Made by a program: the position numbers and the translations under genes. DNA of 64,000 nt, taken from positions 1 to 64,000 of IMG/VR virus record IMGVR_UViG_3300037258_000549, one strand, 5' to 3'. The notes under the pieces were generated by a model. That model was not told the origin of the DNA and did no database searches. It worked only from the letters and a program-made list of their open reading frames with translations. This document shows, piece after piece, positions 1-57,060 of this stretch (the first letter of the stretch is position 1; each line of letters starts with the position of its first letter). Source of the DNA: a virus (taxonomy: Duplodnaviria > Heunggongvirae > Uroviricota > Caudoviricetes).

Positions 1-1320
1 AGGGCAGGCGGGACTGGGACCGGGGCGGAAAGTCGGTGTGGAACGGGCTGGGCAGGGGCGGGTCGGCCAGGCAAGTCGGTGTGAGATGGGTTGATTGGAG
101 GCGATCAGGGCTGGCAAGTCGGTATGGTGCGGCCAGGAACGTGATGGGTCGAGACGTCGGTGTGGGTCGGGACGAAGCGGTACGGGGTGGGTAGTCGGCC
201 TGGGGCGGGTCGGCTGGGTCTGGGCGGGGCTGGATGGTGTAGTCGTACGGGCTGGCTCGGATTGGGCTGGGTAGGGCAGGTAAGTCGGGGTGGTGCGGAC
301 GGGAACGGAATGGTAAGTCGGCGCGGGCTGGTTCGGTGCGTGATGATCCGGGAAGTCGGTAGGGGCCGGGCGGGGTAGGGGCGGATCGGGGTGGCTTGTC
401 GGTATGGAACGGACGGGGCAGGTATGGCAAGTCAGTACGGGGCGGGGCGGACCGGGGTGGCTTGTCGGCAGCGGCCAGGCAGGGGCGTTTCGGCTCGTCG
501 GTGTGGGGTGGGTTGGGCTGGGTTGGGTGGTCGGGGCCGGTTGGCTTGTCGGCAGGAGGGGGCTGGTGTGGTGCGGCTTGTCGGCTCGGCGCGGACCTGG
601 GGTGACGTGGTTCGCTTGGGATGGCTCGGCTAGTCGGGCAGGTGGGGGTCGGACGGGGGTGGCGTGGCTCGTCGGGGAGGTGAGGCTTGCTGCGGGCCGG
701 GCTGGCGTGGCGAGTCACGGGTGCGGACGGGTTTGGGTTGGTAAGTCGGTGCGGGCAGGTGAGGCACGAGGTGGCCTGTCGGCTTGGCCTGGGGCGGCGC
801 GTGATGGACGGGCGTGTCGGCCTGGGCTGGAGTGTAATGGACTGGCGCGTCGGCGGGGGCCGGGTAGGGGTGGGTCGAGACGGTTCGTCGACGTGGGAAG
901 GAGTGAAGCGGTGTGGGCGGGACAGAGCTGGGTGGTCGGTGTGGCCTGGCGGGGGCTGAGGCGGGTTGGGCTGTGAAGGATAGTCGGTACGGTGCGGTTC
1001 GGGCTGGAGCGGGTTGTCGGTGTGGCCTGGCGGGGGCTGAGGCGGGTTGGGCTGTGAAGGGTAGTCGGTGCGGGCAGGTGAGGCACGGGGTGGCATGAGA
1101 AGTCGGTACGGTGCGGTTCGGAAAGGGAGGACAAGTCGGCGGGGGAGGGATCGGGCAGTCTCGGCTCGTCGGGGAGGGGTGAGCGGGCCGGGTTTGGCTG
1201 GTGATGACAAGTTGGTGCGGGCCGGATTTGGCTGGGGTGGGATGGCCGGATGCGTCGGGTAAGCCGGACAGGTGCTGGGATGTCGGCGCGGGGAGGGCCA
1301 GGAGAAGTCGATGAGGTTTG
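1..1320. repeat. Block B1 of degenerate RGTCGGYRCGG repeats (G-rich on + strand); runs off the left edge of the window
   Basis: Dozens of GTCGG(T/C)(A/G)CGG motifs separated by GGG-rich, A/T-poor spacers. No consistent reading frame. Confidence 0.8.
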
Positions 1321-1426
1321 TGTAGCCGCCCTGATGCGGCGTAGCGGTAGCACTAGACCGTATGATACCTTCTGCTCCAGCGACCGCAAATTAGCTGTAA
1401 GGCAACAGTTGCACCCTCTCCTGCGG

Positions 1427-1441
1427 TCTGTTACAGTATAG
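1427..1441 (+). promoter_or_regulatory. Promoter-like motif TCTGTTACAGTATAG (copy a), preceded by AACAGTT
   Basis: About 36 nt upstream of the 1463 ATG. The same 15-mer family recurs at 3910, 12410, 13805, 20364, 52889 and 54263. Confidence 0.4.
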
Positions 1442-1462
1442 AACGAGCCCAAGGAGGGGAGC

Positions 1463-2173
1463 ATGACACCATCGAGTGAGCGCGATTACCTGGACGAAGT
1501 GGCCGAGGAGGTCGCTAAGTACCTCGACGGCCACGATCACGTTATCTCAGCGGAGGCAGCCAGTGAGCTGATCGCCCGCTGGGAGGCGGAAAACCCCGGC
1601 CTGCTGATCGGCTGGCTGCGCGTCCGGGCACAGCAGGTGCTGAAGGATTACATTTACACGGTCACCCTGAGCCGGGGCGCCCGCCGCCGCGGGGAAGAGC
1701 AACGCGGCCGGTTCGCCAAGTTCGCCGATGGCTTCCACGACGCGCTGAATGAGGGAGCGGAGAAAGGGCGGGAGTTTTACCGCTACCACAGCGTGACGGA
1801 AGGAGCGCTGCTGATCAGGAAGCCACTCGGTGACCTGACCGCCAAGCAGGTCCAGGAGGTGCGTGACCGCTACCACCAGGCGGCCCGGGACAGCGGGTTC
1901 TACGCCCGGGTTTACGAGAAGGTCCGGCTGCGGGTAGTCGCAAAGGGGTCGGAGGCGGTCGTCGCTGACGTCTATACCCCGGAGCAGCTGGAGAACATGT
2001 TCAAGCGGGGGGACCGGTCGCCGCTGGTAGCGGAGGACCTCCGCGCGGCCTCCGATCGACAGCAGTCGTCGACAGGCGCCGGGGAAGCCGGGCCGCCGGC
2101 CGTTGGTGCCGGGGAAGCCGGGCCGCCGCAGCAAGACGCCGTAGCGGAAGTGCGCTTTCAGCCTGGGGTGTAA
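1463..2173 (+). CDS. Hypothetical protein
   Basis: RBS AAGGAGGGGA then ATG. GC3-rich coding. Contains an internal 30-bp tandem duplication (GAGEAGPP x2) at ~2078-2137. Confidence 0.6.
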   Translation: MTPSSERDYLDEVAEEVAKYLDGHDHVISAEAASELIARWEAENPGLLIGWLRVRAQQVLKDYIYTVTLSRGARRRGEEQRGRFAKFADGFHDALNEGAEKGREFYRYHSVTEGALLIRKPLGDLTAKQVQEVRDRYHQAARDSGFYARVYEKVRLRVVAKGSEAVVADVYTPEQLENMFKRGDRSPLVAEDLRAASDRQQSSTGAGEAGPPAVGAGEAGPPQQDAVAEVRFQPGV

Positions 2174-2257
2174 ACGGCAACCAGGGGATAAGAAAATAAG
2201 CACAGCGATGATCCGGGGAATCACCCGGGTCAGGAAAAGCACAGGAGAGCGGCAGTA

Positions 2258-55255: not shown

Positions 55256-55369
55256 AGTTGCTGACTGCGGAGCGACTAGGTATCCGCCAAAAGAGAGGAT
55301 AACTAGCATGCACTACCGCGCTGAGCTGCTTGAACGCCTGTGAGATACTGAGCGCGAAAGGGGGTATCA

Positions 55370-55903
55370 GTGCCTGACGATGACCGGCTGACCGCGCTGC
55401 AGCTCGCTGTCGCCGTGCAGACGGCAAACAAGAGCTTGCCGACCGCGCAGGCGGGGGACGTGACGGCGATGGCGGAGGCCTTCTACCGCTGGCTGGAAGC
55501 TCCCGTTACCCTGGTTCTCTCCTGTGATCCGCTCACTTACCCGCAGGCGTCCCCGGAAAGCCCGGGAACACCGACTGTTATGAAGGGAAGTACCGTGCAA
55601 CTCACCGATACCCAGCAGGTCACGCTCACCGTGTCCGAGCAGGACAGCAAGCAGCAGCCGGTCACCGGCGACAGCCTCGCCTGGACGGTCGACAACCCGG
55701 CCGTCGTCGTGATCACCCCGGCTGCCGACGGCTACTCGTGCCTGTGCGTGGCGGGAACCGACGGCGTGGCTACCGTTACCGTCGCGGACAACACGGTGAC
55801 GCCGCCGCTGACCGGCACGGACGTGCTCACGGTGGTCTCTTCCGCCGCGACCAGTCTCATGGTCAGCGAGGGCACCGCGGAAGACCAGCCGCCCGCAGTC
55901 TGA
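55370..55903 (+). CDS. Protein with a bacterial Ig-like (Big_2-like) domain
   Basis: RBS GAAAGGGGG then GTG. TVMKGSTVQLTDTQQVTLTV...VATVTVAD. Confidence 0.5.
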   Translation: MPDDDRLTALQLAVAVQTANKSLPTAQAGDVTAMAEAFYRWLEAPVTLVLSCDPLTYPQASPESPGTPTVMKGSTVQLTDTQQVTLTVSEQDSKQQPVTGDSLAWTVDNPAVVVITPAADGYSCLCVAGTDGVATVTVADNTVTPPLTGTDVLTVVSSAATSLMVSEGTAEDQPPAV

Positions 55904-56092
55904 GCTGTAGCTGAAGCTCCCGGGTGGCGCACCGTCCGCAGCGTGCGCTACCCGGGGCAGGACCAACTGAAGTAGCAAGGTAATAGCATGCGCGTCCTTA
56001 CCACCGCCGCCCTGTCCGGTGGCTCATTGGTTCCAGTCGACAACGTGAGGTCGAGTACGCCTCGGCCGCCGCGCACCCGAGCAGGCTGAGCG

Positions 56093-56758
56093 ATGGCCGT
56101 CGCGCCGAAGCCGAAGAAGACCGCCGCTCAGGCGAAGGCAGCGACCGCGTTCGCGGCGGCAGGCCGGGCGGCGCAGGCGGCTACCCGGGCGGCGGCGATC
56201 AAGAAGACTGGTAAGCCACCACCGGTTTCTAAGGCCCGGCATCAGGCAGCACTGAAGTGGGCGGCGGCCGGGCGCGCGTCCCAGGCAGCAGCTAAAGCCG
56301 GCAAGAAGGTAGCAAAGAAGAAGGTCGCTGCCGTTGCCCCGGAGCTGCTCCAGGCGCACCCGGGCGCGCAGTGGCCTGTCGGCTGCAACGATACTGACCC
56401 TACGTGCGCGGCGGTGGCTGTCGCCTGCCATCTGCAAGCAGTTACCGGCTTTACCATGAGCAACAAGGACATATTGAAGCTGCACCGGCTAGCCGGCGGT
56501 GAAACCGGAGCGACGATCAGCGACGTGCTGGAAGCGATGCAGGAGCACTGGGCCAGCTTTAGTAAAGGCCGGGTCAGGTTGCTGTCGTTTTTCCAGACTG
56601 ATGAGCAGTTTATTGTCGCGGGCCTGGTAGTCGGCGTCCAGCTTGGTCATGAGGGGCACGCCGTTTTGTCCTGCCCCGGGGGGATGATCACTTGGGGCCG
56701 GTACCTGCCGTGGGCGGGCGAGCCCCGTGAAGCATGGGCCATCGAGTGGGGTTTGTGA
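56093..56758 (+). CDS. Ala/Lys-rich N-terminus plus a putative Cys/His peptidase-like C-terminal domain (candidate lysis enzyme)
   Basis: N-terminal AKAATAFAAAGRAAQAA... and C-terminal ...DPTCAAVAVACHL...GHAVLSCPGGMITWG. The function is a guess. Confidence 0.45.
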   Translation: MAVAPKPKKTAAQAKAATAFAAAGRAAQAATRAAAIKKTGKPPPVSKARHQAALKWAAAGRASQAAAKAGKKVAKKKVAAVAPELLQAHPGAQWPVGCNDTDPTCAAVAVACHLQAVTGFTMSNKDILKLHRLAGGETGATISDVLEAMQEHWASFSKGRVRLLSFFQTDEQFIVAGLVVGVQLGHEGHAVLSCPGGMITWGRYLPWAGEPREAWAIEWGL

Positions 56759-56759
56759 G

Positions 56760-57060
56760 GTGGAAAGGATAGTCAGTCGGCGCGGGGTGGGGTGGTACTG
56801 GCGAGGGTGGTCGGCGAGGTTTGGGCGGGGGCAGGCTGAGGCGTGATGGGACGGCTCGTCGACGAGGGATGGGCAGGGAGGACCCGGGCTGGCCAGTCGG
56901 CGCGGACGGGGAAGGATGGGGCTGGCCAGTCGGACCGGGCAGGACCGGGCGGGCATGGGAGGACCAGTCGGCGGGGAATGGGGCGGACTGACATGGGAAG
57001 GCCAGTCGACGGGGCATGGGGCGGGCGGGGTTGGCTCGTCGGGGCGAATCGCTGATTAGG
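56760..57060. repeat. Block B6 of RGTCGGYRCGG repeats
   Basis: G-rich GTCGG tract. Followed by a degenerate copy of the 15-mer (CTGCCATCATATCAAGG). Confidence 0.75.

What the first reader, a model, noticed from the sequence alone, without database searches (positions are those of the whole stretch)
1..57060. Family of polar intergenic elements built from degenerate RGTCGGYRCGG arrays (nine or more copies)
- **Blocks.** Seven blocks are G-rich on the + strand: 1-1320, 3042-3840, 13275-13805, 27790-27870 (mini), 52415-52890, 53976-54264 and 56760-57060. Two are inverted C-rich blocks: 16742-16905 and 19343-19905.
- **Composition.** Each block is almost devoid of A/T-containing stop codons. It contains many copies of the oriented 10-11-mer GTCGG(T/C)(A/G)CGG(G) at irregular 8-55-nt spacing. 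Most copies read GTCGGTACGG or GTCGGCGCGGG. The spacers are full of GGG runs, which gives G-quadruplex potential on the G-rich strand.
- **Boundary module.** Every block is capped at one end by a conserved ~40-bp module. In the G orientation it reads ...TAGCCACCCTGGTGTGGCGTGCTTAGAGTATAGC (B3) or CCGCCCTGGTTACGGAGTC(C/T)(T/C)CTG(G/C)AGTATA(G/C) (B4, B5). In the C orientation it reads TATAAT-N8-ACGCCACACGAGGGTGGCTAGGCAAACC (C2) or TATAAG-ACGCCATATAAGGGTGGCTACGCAAGCC (C1). These are reverse complements of one another.
- **Placement.** The blocks always sit between operons. Examples: right after the 3006-3041 terminator, 1 nt after the 52414 stop, and on both sides of the terminase gene.
- **Reading-frame behaviour.** Length varies from 80 bp to more than 1.3 kb. 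The ORF track shows proline-rich ORFs in several frames on the C-rich strand, which argues against coding.

I know of no described phage element with this architecture. The orientation, the terminal TATA box and the clustering of an asymmetric motif suggest one of three things: an array of binding sites for a phage DNA-binding protein (analogous to oriented stoperators but massively reiterated), a promoter-driven C-rich transcript, or a G4/R-loop-based transcription boundary.
Basis: seen in the sequence. Interest (0 to 1): 0.9.

Follow-up and report, generated by a model that had tools for sequence, protein, structure and literature searches.

The report
Phage guide-RNA arrays for Cas7-like protein
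The strange G-rich blocks are real, non-coding five-base-periodic repeat arrays that go with a Cas7-like protein gene in the same phage, so they are most likely guide-RNA arrays of a VIPR-like system (a phage RNA-guided silencing system first described in 2026 preprints), here in an unusually large and differently built form.

Summary
**Observation.** It is confirmed and extended.
- The 90.8-kb soil viral contig carries 11 strand-skewed intergenic arrays: nine in the window and two beyond it. Together they total 6.7 kb, or 7.4% of the contig.
- The arrays have a strict 5-nt period, G-G-N-N-N on the G strand.
- A GTC insertion punctuates the period, so that GTCGG spacings are 5k+3, mostly 33 or 38 nt. 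There are about 184 units, and nearly all are unique.

**Associated protein.**
- Gene 2258-2980 lies between arrays B1 and B2 and encodes a Cas7/Csm3-fold RAMP with a GhGxxxxxGhG loop.
- Its homologues always sit next to the same kind of array. This holds in soil phages, in prophages of Actinomycetota and Chloroflexota, and in one cyanophage.

**Identification.** This matches VIPR, described in bioRxiv preprints from 2026: a phage RAMP plus pentanucleotide-repeat guide RNAs.

**Differences from canonical VIPR.**
- Genomic context indicates that the C-rich strand is transcribed, giving CC-N-N-N repeats with CCGAC punctuation.
- Units are short (6-7 pentamers) and have no tail of their own.
- In this phage each array is its own transcription unit: a TAnnnT -10 element, then a covarying 5' hairpin, then the array.

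**Not established.** No targets and no RNA data were found.

**Verdict.** This is a new variant of a very recently described kind of system.

The parts
1..1342 (-). Array B1. It is cut by the contig start and is G-rich on the + strand; the RNA is inferred to come from the - strand. It holds 38 GTCG-delimited units. The terminal hairpin module TAGCCGCCCTGATGCGGCGT lies at 1323-1342.
   Evidence: This module has no TAnnnT hexamer 5-10 nt away.
1409..1437 (+). Sigma-70-type promoter of the two-gene operon: TTGCAC, 17-nt spacer, TACAGT. An RBS, AAGGAGG, follows. The same geometry is conserved in relatives: TTGACG-17-TATAGT in G001 and TTGCAG-17-TACAGT in G005.
   Evidence: Read directly from the sequences. 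This is inferred, not tested.
1463..2173 (+). Candidate accessory (vap-like) gene of 236 aa. It is found only in close relatives, and its function is unknown.
   Evidence: - 43 homologues, all at least 63% identical.
- No hit in Pfam, PHROGs or PADLOC; only a sub-threshold NCBIfam match to EzrA, 14.5 bits against a cut-off of 1122.
- The AF2 model is mostly helical with pLDDT 67 and pTM 0.35, too weak to search with.
2258..2980 (+). Vipr-like RAMP of 240 aa with a Cas7/Csm3 fold. It has an invariant C-terminal loop, G215-x-G217-ASRSQ-G-Y-G225. It is present as a single copy in the contig.
   Evidence: - Homologues, alignment and AF2 model (pLDDT 83, pTM 0.75).
- All 50 Foldseek matches listed are chains of CRISPR effector complexes, mostly type III-A Csm and type VII, and include a solved Csm3 (5yjd_A) and Cas7-11; E down to 1.7e-6.
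- VIA-align gives Csm3 6ae2_B at Z 10.1 (rmsd 3.6, 150 aligned), and about 45 of the top 50 matches are RAMPs.
- Single copy in the contig.
3005..3041 (+). Intrinsic terminator after the RAMP gene: a 15-bp stem followed by TTTTT. It directly abuts the start of array B2.
3042..3888 (-). Array B2 with 27 units. A variant hairpin module lies at 3854-3873. A -10-like GATACT/TACTTT on the - strand lies at 3883-3888.
13275..13817 (-). Array B3 with 14 units. The hairpin lies at 13786-13805 and TATACT (on the - strand) at 13812-13817. On its other side the array is preceded by the terminator of gene 12451-13269.
16728..16905 (+). Array C1, which is C-rich on the + strand. TACAGT lies at 16728-16733 and the hairpin at 16742-16761, followed by a short array.
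19343..19906 (+). Array C2, which is C-rich on the + strand and starts directly after the TerL stop codon. TATAAT lies at 19343-19348 and the hairpin at 19357-19376, followed by 13 units.
   Evidence: - Anatomy.
- The syntenic arrays of relatives do not align here, although the flanking genes are 75-82% identical.
27790..27899 (-). Mini-array with 2-3 units. The hairpin lies at 27865-27884 and TACGAT (on the - strand) at 27894-27899.
52415..52902 (-). Array B4 with 14 units. The hairpin TATCCGCCCTGGTTACGGAGT lies at 52869-52889 and TATACT (on the - strand) at 52897-52902.
53976..54276 (-). Array B5 with 7 units. The hairpin lies at 54243-54263 and TATACT (on the - strand) at 54271-54276.
56760..57072 (-). 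Array B6 with 8 units. It ends in the second type of terminal module, AGGCGGACTGCCATC, at 57058-57072. The array at contig positions 68976-70325 shares this module.

Best explanation
**What it is.** The blocks are arrays of guide-RNA units of a VIPR-like system. The protein component is the Cas7-fold RAMP encoded at 2258-2980.

**What is shown**
- Each array is a run of pentamers with two fixed positions: G-G on the G strand, which is C-C on the other strand. The three positions between them are variable.
- A 3-nt insertion (GTC, or GAC on the other strand) interrupts the run every 6-7 pentamers. This gives about 184 units, almost all different.
- The arrays turn over completely between related phages whose flanking genes are 75-85% identical.
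- The RAMP gene and this kind of array always occur together, across Actinomycetota, Chloroflexota and a cyanophage.

**What is inferred**
- The C-rich strand is the RNA.
  - In this phage each array is its own transcription unit. It consists of a TAnnnT -10 element, a start at the A of ACGCC, a covarying 5-bp 5' hairpin, and then the array. In three cases the array runs into the terminator of the convergent upstream gene.
  - In most relatives the array is simply co-transcribed with the RAMP gene.
- By analogy with the VIPR system of Escherichia phage SUSP1, RAMP protomers would bind one per pentamer. They would clamp the fixed dinucleotide and present the variable bases for gapped pairing to double-stranded DNA. 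The target would be a competing phage, a prophage or a host gene, and it would be silenced.
- The CCGAC punctuation is the most conserved motif family-wide. It probably marks unit boundaries, for processing or for filament ends.
For: **Periodicity and punctuation**
- Five-base period with 5k+3 spacing of the punctuation.
- The same rules hold in distant relatives. CGAC spacing is 33 > 38 > 43 > 48, and the lag-5 autocorrelation of C is 0.09-0.38.

**RAMP protein**
- Only the protein of 2258-2980 is shared by array-bearing loci at 26-83% identity. It is always adjacent to an array.
- It has a RAMP fold and a G-loop.
- About 200 homologues were found, none with a Pfam family.
- Eleven loci lie in genomes of Streptomyces, Nocardiopsis, Actinomadura, Streptacidiphilus, Chloroflexota and others. 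All of these have arrays.
- One further locus is in Microcystis phage Mae-JY09.

**Published VIPR description**
- VIPR consists of a phage RAMP and pentanucleotide-repeat vrRNAs.
- Variant repeat consensuses such as NNNGG are reported, as are arrays without spacers (bioRxiv 10.64898/2026.04.26.720920; structure paper .720927).

**Guide-like behaviour**
- The array at a syntenic position is not alignable between relatives.
- Only 2 units are shared with relatives, at 88-89% identity.

**Transcribed strand**
- The array next to the RAMP gene is C-rich on the gene's sense strand in 10 of the 11 genome loci. In the eleventh (L156) the nearest array scored lies about 1.2 kb downstream and is also C-rich on that strand.
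- The same holds in L139 and L151-L154. In L153 and L154 the array fills the whole gap from the upstream stop codon to the RAMP RBS.
- In SUSP1 the vrRNAs are on the vipr sense strand.
- TAnnnT lies 6-9 nt before the hairpin in 13 of 18 modules. By my estimate from base composition, chance would give roughly 3-4%. The hexamer varies but keeps T-A---T.
- The same geometry occurs in distant locus L081: TAGGCT-N7-ACTCCGG.
- Arrays B2, B3 and the one at 88876-89675 are directly preceded on the G-sense side by terminators, leaving no room for a promoter.
Against: **No direct test of RNA, binding or targets**
- No RNA data exist for this phage. Transcription, strand, processing and protein binding are therefore untested.
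- No target was found.

**Points that argue for the G strand instead**
- Canonical vrRNAs carry G-G-Y, and the VIPR preprint lists NNNGG variants. The G strand could therefore be the RNA.
- On that reading the hairpin would be a 3' tail, as in canonical vrRNAs.
- In this phage 9 of 11 arrays have their G strand on the sense strand of the flanking genes. Three of them start 1-2 nt after a stop codon, which would also suit read-through transcription of the G strand.

**Weak link to canonical Vipr**
- Sequence similarity to SUSP1 Vipr is not significant: hhalign E = 0.055, over the G-loop only.
- The G-recognising residues D177 and W178 of SUSP1 Vipr align to A and S here.

**Uninformative test**
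- Hairpin stability does not discriminate between the two strands.
Confidence: 0.8

Rival explanations
1. It is the same RAMP-plus-array system, but with canonical polarity. The G-rich strand would be the RNA, with (Y)GG-NN repeats and the conserved hairpin as a 3' tail. In this phage it would be made by read-through from the upstream genes.
For: - Canonical vrRNAs are GGY/NN with a structured 3' tail, and NNNGG variants are listed.
- In this phage 9 of 11 arrays are G-rich on the sense strand of the flanking genes.
- Arrays B4, B5 and B6 begin 1-2 nt after a stop codon.
- One hairpin variant (27865-27884) pairs with G-U only on the G strand.
Against: - Outside this clade the arrays are C-rich on the RAMP sense strand in essentially all loci.
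- In several loci they abut the RAMP RBS, so a G-strand promoter would have to lie inside the coding sequence.
- Arrays B2, B3 and the one at 88876-89675 sit immediately behind intrinsic terminators in the G sense.
- The conserved TAnnnT reads correctly only on the C strand.
- The hairpin variant at 16742-16761 pairs with G-U only on the C strand.
Confidence: 0.13
2. The arrays act at the DNA level. They could be reiterated oriented binding sites for a phage DNA-binding protein (like stoperators), Chi-like nuclease-modulating sites, or G-quadruplex/R-loop transcription boundaries.
For: - The motif has strict polarity, with GTCGG 157:1 by strand.
- The arrays are intergenic and lie next to terminators.
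- (GGNNN)n could form two-tetrad G-quadruplexes; this rests on established knowledge and was not tested here.
Against: - These readings do not explain the obligatory co-occurrence with an RNA-binding RAMP across phyla.
- They do not explain the hypervariability of three of every five positions.
- They do not explain the promoter-plus-hairpin cap.
- If the C strand is the RNA, the displaced strand is C-rich, which does not favour R-loops.
Confidence: 0.04
3. The C-rich transcripts are sponges or decoys rather than guides. They might titrate host Rho, which loads on C-rich, G-poor RNA, or a competitor's RAMP.
For: - The composition of the inferred RNA is about 50% C and about 18% G.
- Satellite-encoded solo vrRNAs that redirect another element's VIPR are reported (bioRxiv 10.64898/2026.10.15.759431).
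Against: - A sponge needs neither about 125 distinct units nor complete turnover between relatives.
- The phage encodes its own RAMP next to two of the arrays.
Confidence: 0.03

Closest known systems
VIPR (Viral Interference Programmable Repeat) systems, type II of Escherichia phage SUSP1 (bioRxiv 10.64898/2026.04.26.720920 and .720927)
   Same: - It is phage-encoded.
- It has a small single RAMP with an RRM core and a G-loop.
- The RNA is built of tandem pentamers in which fixed positions alternate with hypervariable ones.
- The arrays sit in intergenic DNA beside the RAMP gene and, as solo copies, elsewhere in the genome.
- The arrays are not self-targeting in the test run here.
   Different: - **Fixed motif.** It is G-G (C-C on the inferred RNA strand) without the conserved third-position pyrimidine.
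- **Unit structure.** Units are 6-7 pentamers separated only by a 3-nt GAC/GTC. SUSP1 has 9-16 pentamers plus a tail of about 40 nt per vrRNA.
- **Hairpin.** There is one hairpin per array, at the inferred 5' end.
- **Scale.** There are about 184 units in 11 arrays, or 7.4% of the contig, against four vrRNAs in SUSP1.
- **Protein.** It is 240 aa against 195 aa, with no significant sequence similarity (hhalign E = 0.055). The residues that recognise G in SUSP1 Vipr are not conserved.
- **Hosts.** They are Actinomycetota, Chloroflexota and cyanobacteria.
CRISPR-Cas class 1 backbone subunits (Cas7 family: Csm3, Cmr4, type VII Cas7, Cas7-11 domains)
   Same: The protein has the same fold and G-loop as these subunits. 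It presumably polymerises along a guide RNA with a fixed nucleotide step.
   Different: - There are no repeat-spacer arrays.
- No other cas gene was seen in the two-gene operon or among the window genes scanned.
- The step is 5 nt rather than 6 nt.
- The guide information is interleaved inside the repeat.
Stoperators of cluster A mycobacteriophages
   Same: They are asymmetric motifs in one orientation, spread through an actinophage genome between genes.
   Different: - Stoperators are single 13-14-bp repressor sites.
- They are not kilobase arrays, have no 5-nt period and no hypervariable positions, and are not linked to a RAMP.
- This comparison rests on my own knowledge and was not tested here.
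Non-canonical VIPR-like arrays found by entropy periodicity (bioRxiv 10.64898/2026.10.21.760802)
   Same: They are 5-nt-period arrays with non-GGY fixed positions next to Vipr-like folds.
   Different: - The motifs named there are GAC/NN, CAC/NN, WGT/NN and TGH/NN, each repeating about 10 times.
- A CC- or GG-only motif with GAC punctuation is not named in the text I could read.

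Membership tests
VIPR | A RAMP-fold protein (RRM core, glycine-rich loop, thumb) encoded outside any CRISPR-Cas locus. | tested here: met
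   - AF2 model with pLDDT 83.
- All 50 Foldseek matches listed are chains of CRISPR effector complexes, mostly type III-A Csm and type VII, and include a solved Csm3 and Cas7-11.
- VIA-align gives Csm3 at Z 10.1 (rmsd 3.6, 150 aligned).
- An invariant GxGxxxxxGxG loop is present.
- No CRISPR repeats are present, and no other cas gene was seen in the two-gene operon or among the window genes scanned.
VIPR | Tandem pentanucleotide repeats in which fixed positions alternate with hypervariable ones. | tested here: met
   - Position 1 is G in 98% of pentamers and position 2 in 81%. Positions 3-5 are variable.
- Lag-5 autocorrelation is 0.26, against 0 +/- 0.012 in shuffles.
VIPR | The canonical fixed trinucleotide GGY followed by NN. 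| tested here: not met
   - The position after GG is G in 41% and C in 30% of pentamers, not a pyrimidine.
- The pyrimidine bias (62%) is at the position before GG.
- The preprint allows variants: NNNGG, YNNNG and NNNNG.
VIPR | Arrays lie beside the RAMP gene. | tested here: met
   This holds in all related loci examined.
VIPR | Each vrRNA has 9-16 repeats followed by a conserved, structured 3' tail. | tested here: not met
   - Units have mostly 6-7 pentamers and are separated by 3 nt.
- There is one hairpin per array, at the inferred 5' end.
- 'Staggered' arrays without spacers are mentioned in the preprint, but I could not see the figure.
VIPR | The protein is a sequence homologue of described Vipr proteins (the PSI-BLAST family of X1U2U4). 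| tested here: inconclusive
   - hhalign of alignment A1 against SUSP1 Vipr gives E = 0.055, over the G-loop only.
- X1U2U4 and the preprint's tables were not available.
VIPR | The array RNA is expressed and bound by the RAMP. | not testable with these tools
   No RNA run holds the sequence. This needs RNA-seq and a pull-down.
VIPR | The variable bases match natural DNA targets under a gapped (1-nt skip) rule. | tested here: inconclusive
   - There is no excess over reversed controls in the phage's own genome or in 1.2 Mb of fetched loci, for skips of 0-3 nt.
- Two long units gave no exact hit in IMG/VR.
- The databases and the exact-match limit make this a weak test.
CRISPR-Cas | Direct repeats of 25-40 nt separated by unique spacers, together with adaptation and effector cas genes. 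| tested here: not met
   - The repeat finder and my own scans show only 5-nt periodicity.
- Only one RAMP gene is present in the contig.
Protein-coding (Gly-rich or Pro-rich) sequence | A 3-nt periodicity and a conserved open frame. | tested here: not met
   - Lag-3 autocorrelation is -0.14 and the period is 5.
- The arrays do not align between relatives.

The most novel reading that the evidence does not exclude
This would be a lineage of VIPR-like systems that has not been described.
- Its RAMP reads a C-C anchor rather than G-G-Y on a C-rich RNA.
- It uses short guides of 6-7 pentamers, about one filament turn, delimited by a CCGAC mark instead of per-guide tails.
- Some actinophages have expanded it into a genome-wide repertoire of about 180 different guides, each array with its own promoter.
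- That would amount to a second 'alphabet' for the noncontiguous RNA-guided code, and the largest phage-borne guide repertoire known.
Probability: 0.35. Interest if true: 0.8.

Novelty: new variant of a known kind. Interest (0 to 1): 0.65.

Why it matters
**Relevance to VIPR**
- VIPR was reported only in 2026. It is proposed as the ancestor of the CRISPR RAMPs and as a minimal programmable DNA-binding platform.
- This locus extends that kind of system to soil actinophages and to prophages of Streptomyces, Nocardiopsis and their relatives.
- It shows a much larger investment: 7.4% of the contig and about 184 mostly unique units.

**What would be new if confirmed**
- It points to a different anchor motif and strand, a different way of delimiting guides, and free-standing promoter-driven arrays.
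- If confirmed, this gives a second recognition code to compare structurally with GGY.
- It also gives a natural repertoire of guides whose targets would map phage-phage conflicts in soil Actinomycetota.

**Practical value**
- The finding identifies cultured strains in which the system can be tested.

Tried and rejected
**Searches that returned nothing useful**
- Nucleotide searches of the terminase gene and of array B2 against 50,697 cultured phage records gave no match.
- Sequencing-run search: no RNA holder is listed. Only the probable source soil metagenome and one small-share run hold the DNA. Read laying was not used, because contigs of DNA runs cannot show transcripts.
- The RAMP matched nothing in Pfam, PHROGs, PADLOC or NCBIfam. 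The upstream gene matched nothing either, apart from a sub-threshold NCBIfam hit to EzrA.
- A profile search of PDB sequences gave only noise.

**Target search**
- I used the variable positions 3-4, 4-5 or 3-5 with skips of 0-3 nt. The databases were the phage's own masked genome and all fetched loci.
- The best-match distributions equal those of reversed controls.
- Two exact gapped patterns from clean 9- and 10-pentamer units found nothing in IMG/VR.

**Tests that did not discriminate**
- Hairpin folding in both senses, meant to call the strand, gave energies within about 2 kcal/mol either way. One wobble pair favours each strand.
- The accessory-gene model was too poor (pTM 0.35) to justify a fold search.
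- A generic array pattern scan of IMG/VR was mostly chance single hits. It was useful only for the loci with several hits.

**Readings rejected**
- Coding for Pro- or Gly-rich proteins is rejected because the period is 5, not 3.
- A CRISPR array is rejected because there are no repeat-spacer units.
- Simple (GGGTC)n microsatellites seen in unrelated contigs are a different thing.

Full report
**1. Source of the window**

The window is the first 64 kb of a 90,776-bp IMG/VR viral contig. CheckV estimates it as 65% complete. The only sequencing run holding nearly all of it is a soil metagenome, which is probably its source.

The contig is from a tailed phage.
- It encodes a portal protein, an HK97-type capsid protein and a terminase.
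- The nearest cultured terminases, at about 35% identity, come from Rhodococcus and Arthrobacter phages.
- No cultured phage resembles it at the nucleotide level.

**2. The observation**

It also finds two more outside the window, at contig positions 68976-70325 and 88876-89675.

The motif is strongly enriched and strictly polar.
- GTCGGYRCGG occurs 32 times in the window, against 2.3 expected.
- In the arrays of about 300 bp or more, except 53976-54264, GTCGG is 3-5 times more frequent than in dinucleotide shuffles of that array. The exceptions have too few copies to judge.
- In all arrays together GTCGG is on the G strand 157 times and on the other strand once.

- Aligning on GTCGG shows about 90% G every fifth base.
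- G autocorrelation is 0.26 at lag 5 and 0.20 at lag 10. Shuffles give 0 +/- 0.012, and lag 3 gives -0.14.
- In register, pentamer position 1 is G in 98% of cases. Position 2 is G in 81% and A in 12%. Positions 3-5 are variable.
- GTC is a 3-nt insertion into this register. Of the GTCG-to-GTCG intervals, 106 of 172 equal 5k+3, with k mostly 6 or 7.
- A period of 5 excludes coding.

In total the arrays cover 6,674 bp, or 7.4% of the contig, and hold about 184 units. Nearly all units differ from one another. The few duplicates are local tandem duplications inside one array.

**3. The terminal module**

Nine of the 11 arrays end in a hairpin, at the 3' end when read on the G strand. Its form is TA-GCCRC-CCTNNT-GYGGC-GT.
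- The stem covaries: GCCAC/GTGGC, GCCGC/GCGGC, GCTGC/GCAGC and TCCG/CGGA.
- Two arrays carry a different end, AGGCGGACTNCCATC.

On the C strand a TAnnnT hexamer lies 6-9 nt before the hairpin in 13 of 18 modules. This count covers this phage and its relatives G001-G005 (corrected by inspection).
- The variants seen are TATACT, TATAAT, TACAGT, TACGAT, TAGACT, TAGTCT and TACTTT.
- From base composition I estimate that chance would give about 3-4%.
- The hexamer varies but keeps T-A---T. This is how a -10 element of an actinobacterial promoter behaves; that statement rests on established knowledge.
- Transcription would then start at the A of ACGCC, putting the hairpin at the 5' end of a C-rich RNA.

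**4. The associated gene**

I compared all ORFs of the contig with every array-bearing locus that pattern scans of IMG/VR had returned.
- Only one protein is shared with the distant loci: the 240-aa product of 2258-2980. Identities are 83, 80, 47, 41, 39, 35, 31 and 26%.
- In every case it lies directly next to an array.
- In the window it lies between arrays B1 and B2. It is the second gene of a two-gene operon. That operon has a good promoter (TTGCAC-17-TACAGT at 1409-1437) and a strong terminator at 3005-3041.

The protein is a RAMP.
- It has about 200 homologues and no Pfam family.
- Its alignment shows an invariant G-x-G-ASRSQ-G-Y-G near the C terminus. This is the GhGxxxxxGhG loop of RAMPs.
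- The AlphaFold model is confident, with pLDDT 83 and pTM 0.75.
- All 50 Foldseek matches listed in the PDB are chains of CRISPR effector complexes, mostly type III-A Csm and type VII. They include a solved Csm3 and Cas7-11 (E down to 1.7e-6).
- The Foldseek-independent search gives Csm3 6ae2_B at Z 10.1 (rmsd 3.6, 150 residues aligned). About 45 RAMPs are among the top 50.
- The contig has a single copy. No other cas gene was seen among the genes scanned.

**5. What is known**

A literature search on pentanucleotide repeats in phages returned a 2026 preprint describing VIPR systems.
- VIPR pairs a phage-encoded RAMP, called Vipr, with vrRNAs made of 9-16 pentamers. In each pentamer GGY is fixed and NN is hypervariable, and the run is followed by a structured 3' tail.
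- The NN bases pair with double-stranded DNA while skipping every third base. The complex silences competing phages and satellites.
- Seven types are defined. Variant consensuses (NNNGG, YNNNG, NNNNG) and arrays without spacers are mentioned.
- A structure paper shows one protomer per pentamer. The two guanines are read by G-loop and thumb residues.
- Later preprints report solo vrRNAs dispersed in phage genomes and non-GGY motifs.

The locus here has the two defining parts: a RAMP outside CRISPR, and 5-nt arrays with fixed and variable positions beside it. I therefore file it as VIPR-like.

**6. Which strand is the RNA**

This is where the locus departs from the canonical system.

I located the SUSP1 locus in KT454805.2. 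There the GGYNN repeats are on the same strand as vipr, and vrRNA1 is preceded by TTGACA-17-TATACT.

In the family studied here the arrangement is the opposite in base content.
- In 10 of the 11 GTDB genome loci the array next to the RAMP gene is C-rich on that gene's sense strand. In the eleventh (L156) the nearest array scored lies about 1.2 kb downstream and is also C-rich on that strand.
- These loci come from Streptomyces, Nocardiopsis, Actinomadura, Streptacidiphilus, Kineosporiaceae, Nanopelagicales, Jatrophihabitantaceae and two Chloroflexota.
- The same holds in five metagenomic loci and in Microcystis phage Mae-JY09.
- In L153 and L154 the array fills the whole gap from the upstream stop codon to the RAMP ribosome-binding site. 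In several other loci it ends within about 20-40 nt of the RAMP start codon. The operon transcript must therefore contain the C-rich strand, and a G-strand promoter would have to lie inside the coding sequence.
- Those co-transcribed arrays lack the TAnnnT-plus-hairpin cap.

In the window's clade the arrays are inverted relative to their neighbours and do carry the cap. So does the one inverted array of distant locus L081 (TAGGCT-N7-ACTCCGG hairpin).

Three arrays (B2, B3 and the one at 88876-89675) follow intrinsic terminators directly in the G sense.

All contexts are thus compatible with a C-rich RNA, and several are awkward for a G-rich one. I put about 85% on the C strand, given that the system is VIPR-like.

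One further point is consistent with a different anchor. The SUSP1 G-loop residues that read the guanines (GVGDWRPRFGRF) align to GFGASRSQEYGRY here. This is not a test.

**7. Guide-like behaviour and targets**

The array after the terminase gene cannot be aligned with the syntenic arrays of relatives, apart from the module and one 60-nt stretch. The flanking genes there are 75-82% identical. Only two units of this phage have an 88-89% counterpart in relatives. This is the turnover expected of a guide repertoire.

I could not find targets.
- Gapped matching under skips of 0-3 nt, and for each choice of variable positions, gave no excess over reversed controls. This was run on the phage's own genome and on the fetched loci.
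- Two exact gapped patterns found nothing in IMG/VR.
- The absence of self-matches agrees with what the preprint reports for its own systems.

**8. Family-wide rules**

In the distant relatives the same unit rule holds.
- CGAC spacings of 33, 38, 43 and 48 dominate.
- C is periodic at lag 5.
- CCGAC is the most conserved motif, even at 29% protein identity.

It therefore probably marks unit boundaries, either as a processing site or as a filament end. This is inferred. Six to seven pentamers is close to the six-protomer helical turn of the SUSP1 filament, which may be relevant.

**9. Verdict**

The best explanation is a VIPR-like RAMP-guide system (confidence 0.8).

It differs from described VIPR in several ways:
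- an unusual anchor motif and strand;
- 3-nt punctuation in place of per-guide tails;
- free-standing promoter-driven arrays;
- a very large repertoire.

From the text available I cannot tell whether this actinobacterial family is already one of the seven published types, for instance the 'NNNGG' or 'staggered' forms. I therefore rate it a new variant of a known kind.

Noticed in passing
window 8723-8824 (+) and 9742-11481 (+): A Ro60/Rsr orthologue with TROVE and vWA domains lies close to a tRNA-like hit (30.2 bits). That hit overlaps a partial YrlA (Y RNA-like) match of 29.4 bits, below the gathering score of 69. Together these look like a phage-borne Ro60-Y RNA module. It is conserved in relatives L016 and L018.
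   Followed up: partly
window 58961-59035 (-) and 60038-60110 (-): ARAGORN calls a tRNA with a CUA anticodon, labelled Pyl, which would make it a possible amber suppressor. It also calls a tRNA-Ile(GAT). Rfam at its gathering threshold reported neither.
   Followed up: no
window 33613-35109 (+): This 498-aa protein combines a MobA-like nucleotidyltransferase domain with an aminoglycoside/choline-kinase-type phosphotransferase domain. Such a combination is unusual in the middle of a phage structural and assembly region.
   Followed up: no
window 13834-14592 (-): A DNA methyltransferase-like gene (PHROG 363) lies on the opposite strand directly after array B3. It is conserved in relatives L016 and L020.
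   Followed up: no
L069, L024, L080, L127, L130, L132, L137 (IMG/VR loci): Perfect (GGGTC)n pentanucleotide microsatellites, in runs of 5-8 copies, sit beside terminator-like hairpins in unrelated high-GC viral contigs. No RAMP gene was looked for there. They may be unrelated to the arrays studied here.
   Followed up: no
L140/L156, L151, L152 (relatives): In one clade of RAMP homologues the gene is flanked by an SNF2-family helicase upstream and a PD-(D/E)XK nuclease directly downstream. The VIPR preprint says some types carry nuclease or helicase accessory genes, so these could be accessories rather than replication genes.
   Followed up: no
contig 69757-69909 (outside the window): Inside the largest minus-strand array a 38-nt two-unit segment is repeated about five times almost perfectly. 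This suggests that the arrays grow by local tandem duplication followed by divergence.
   Followed up: partly
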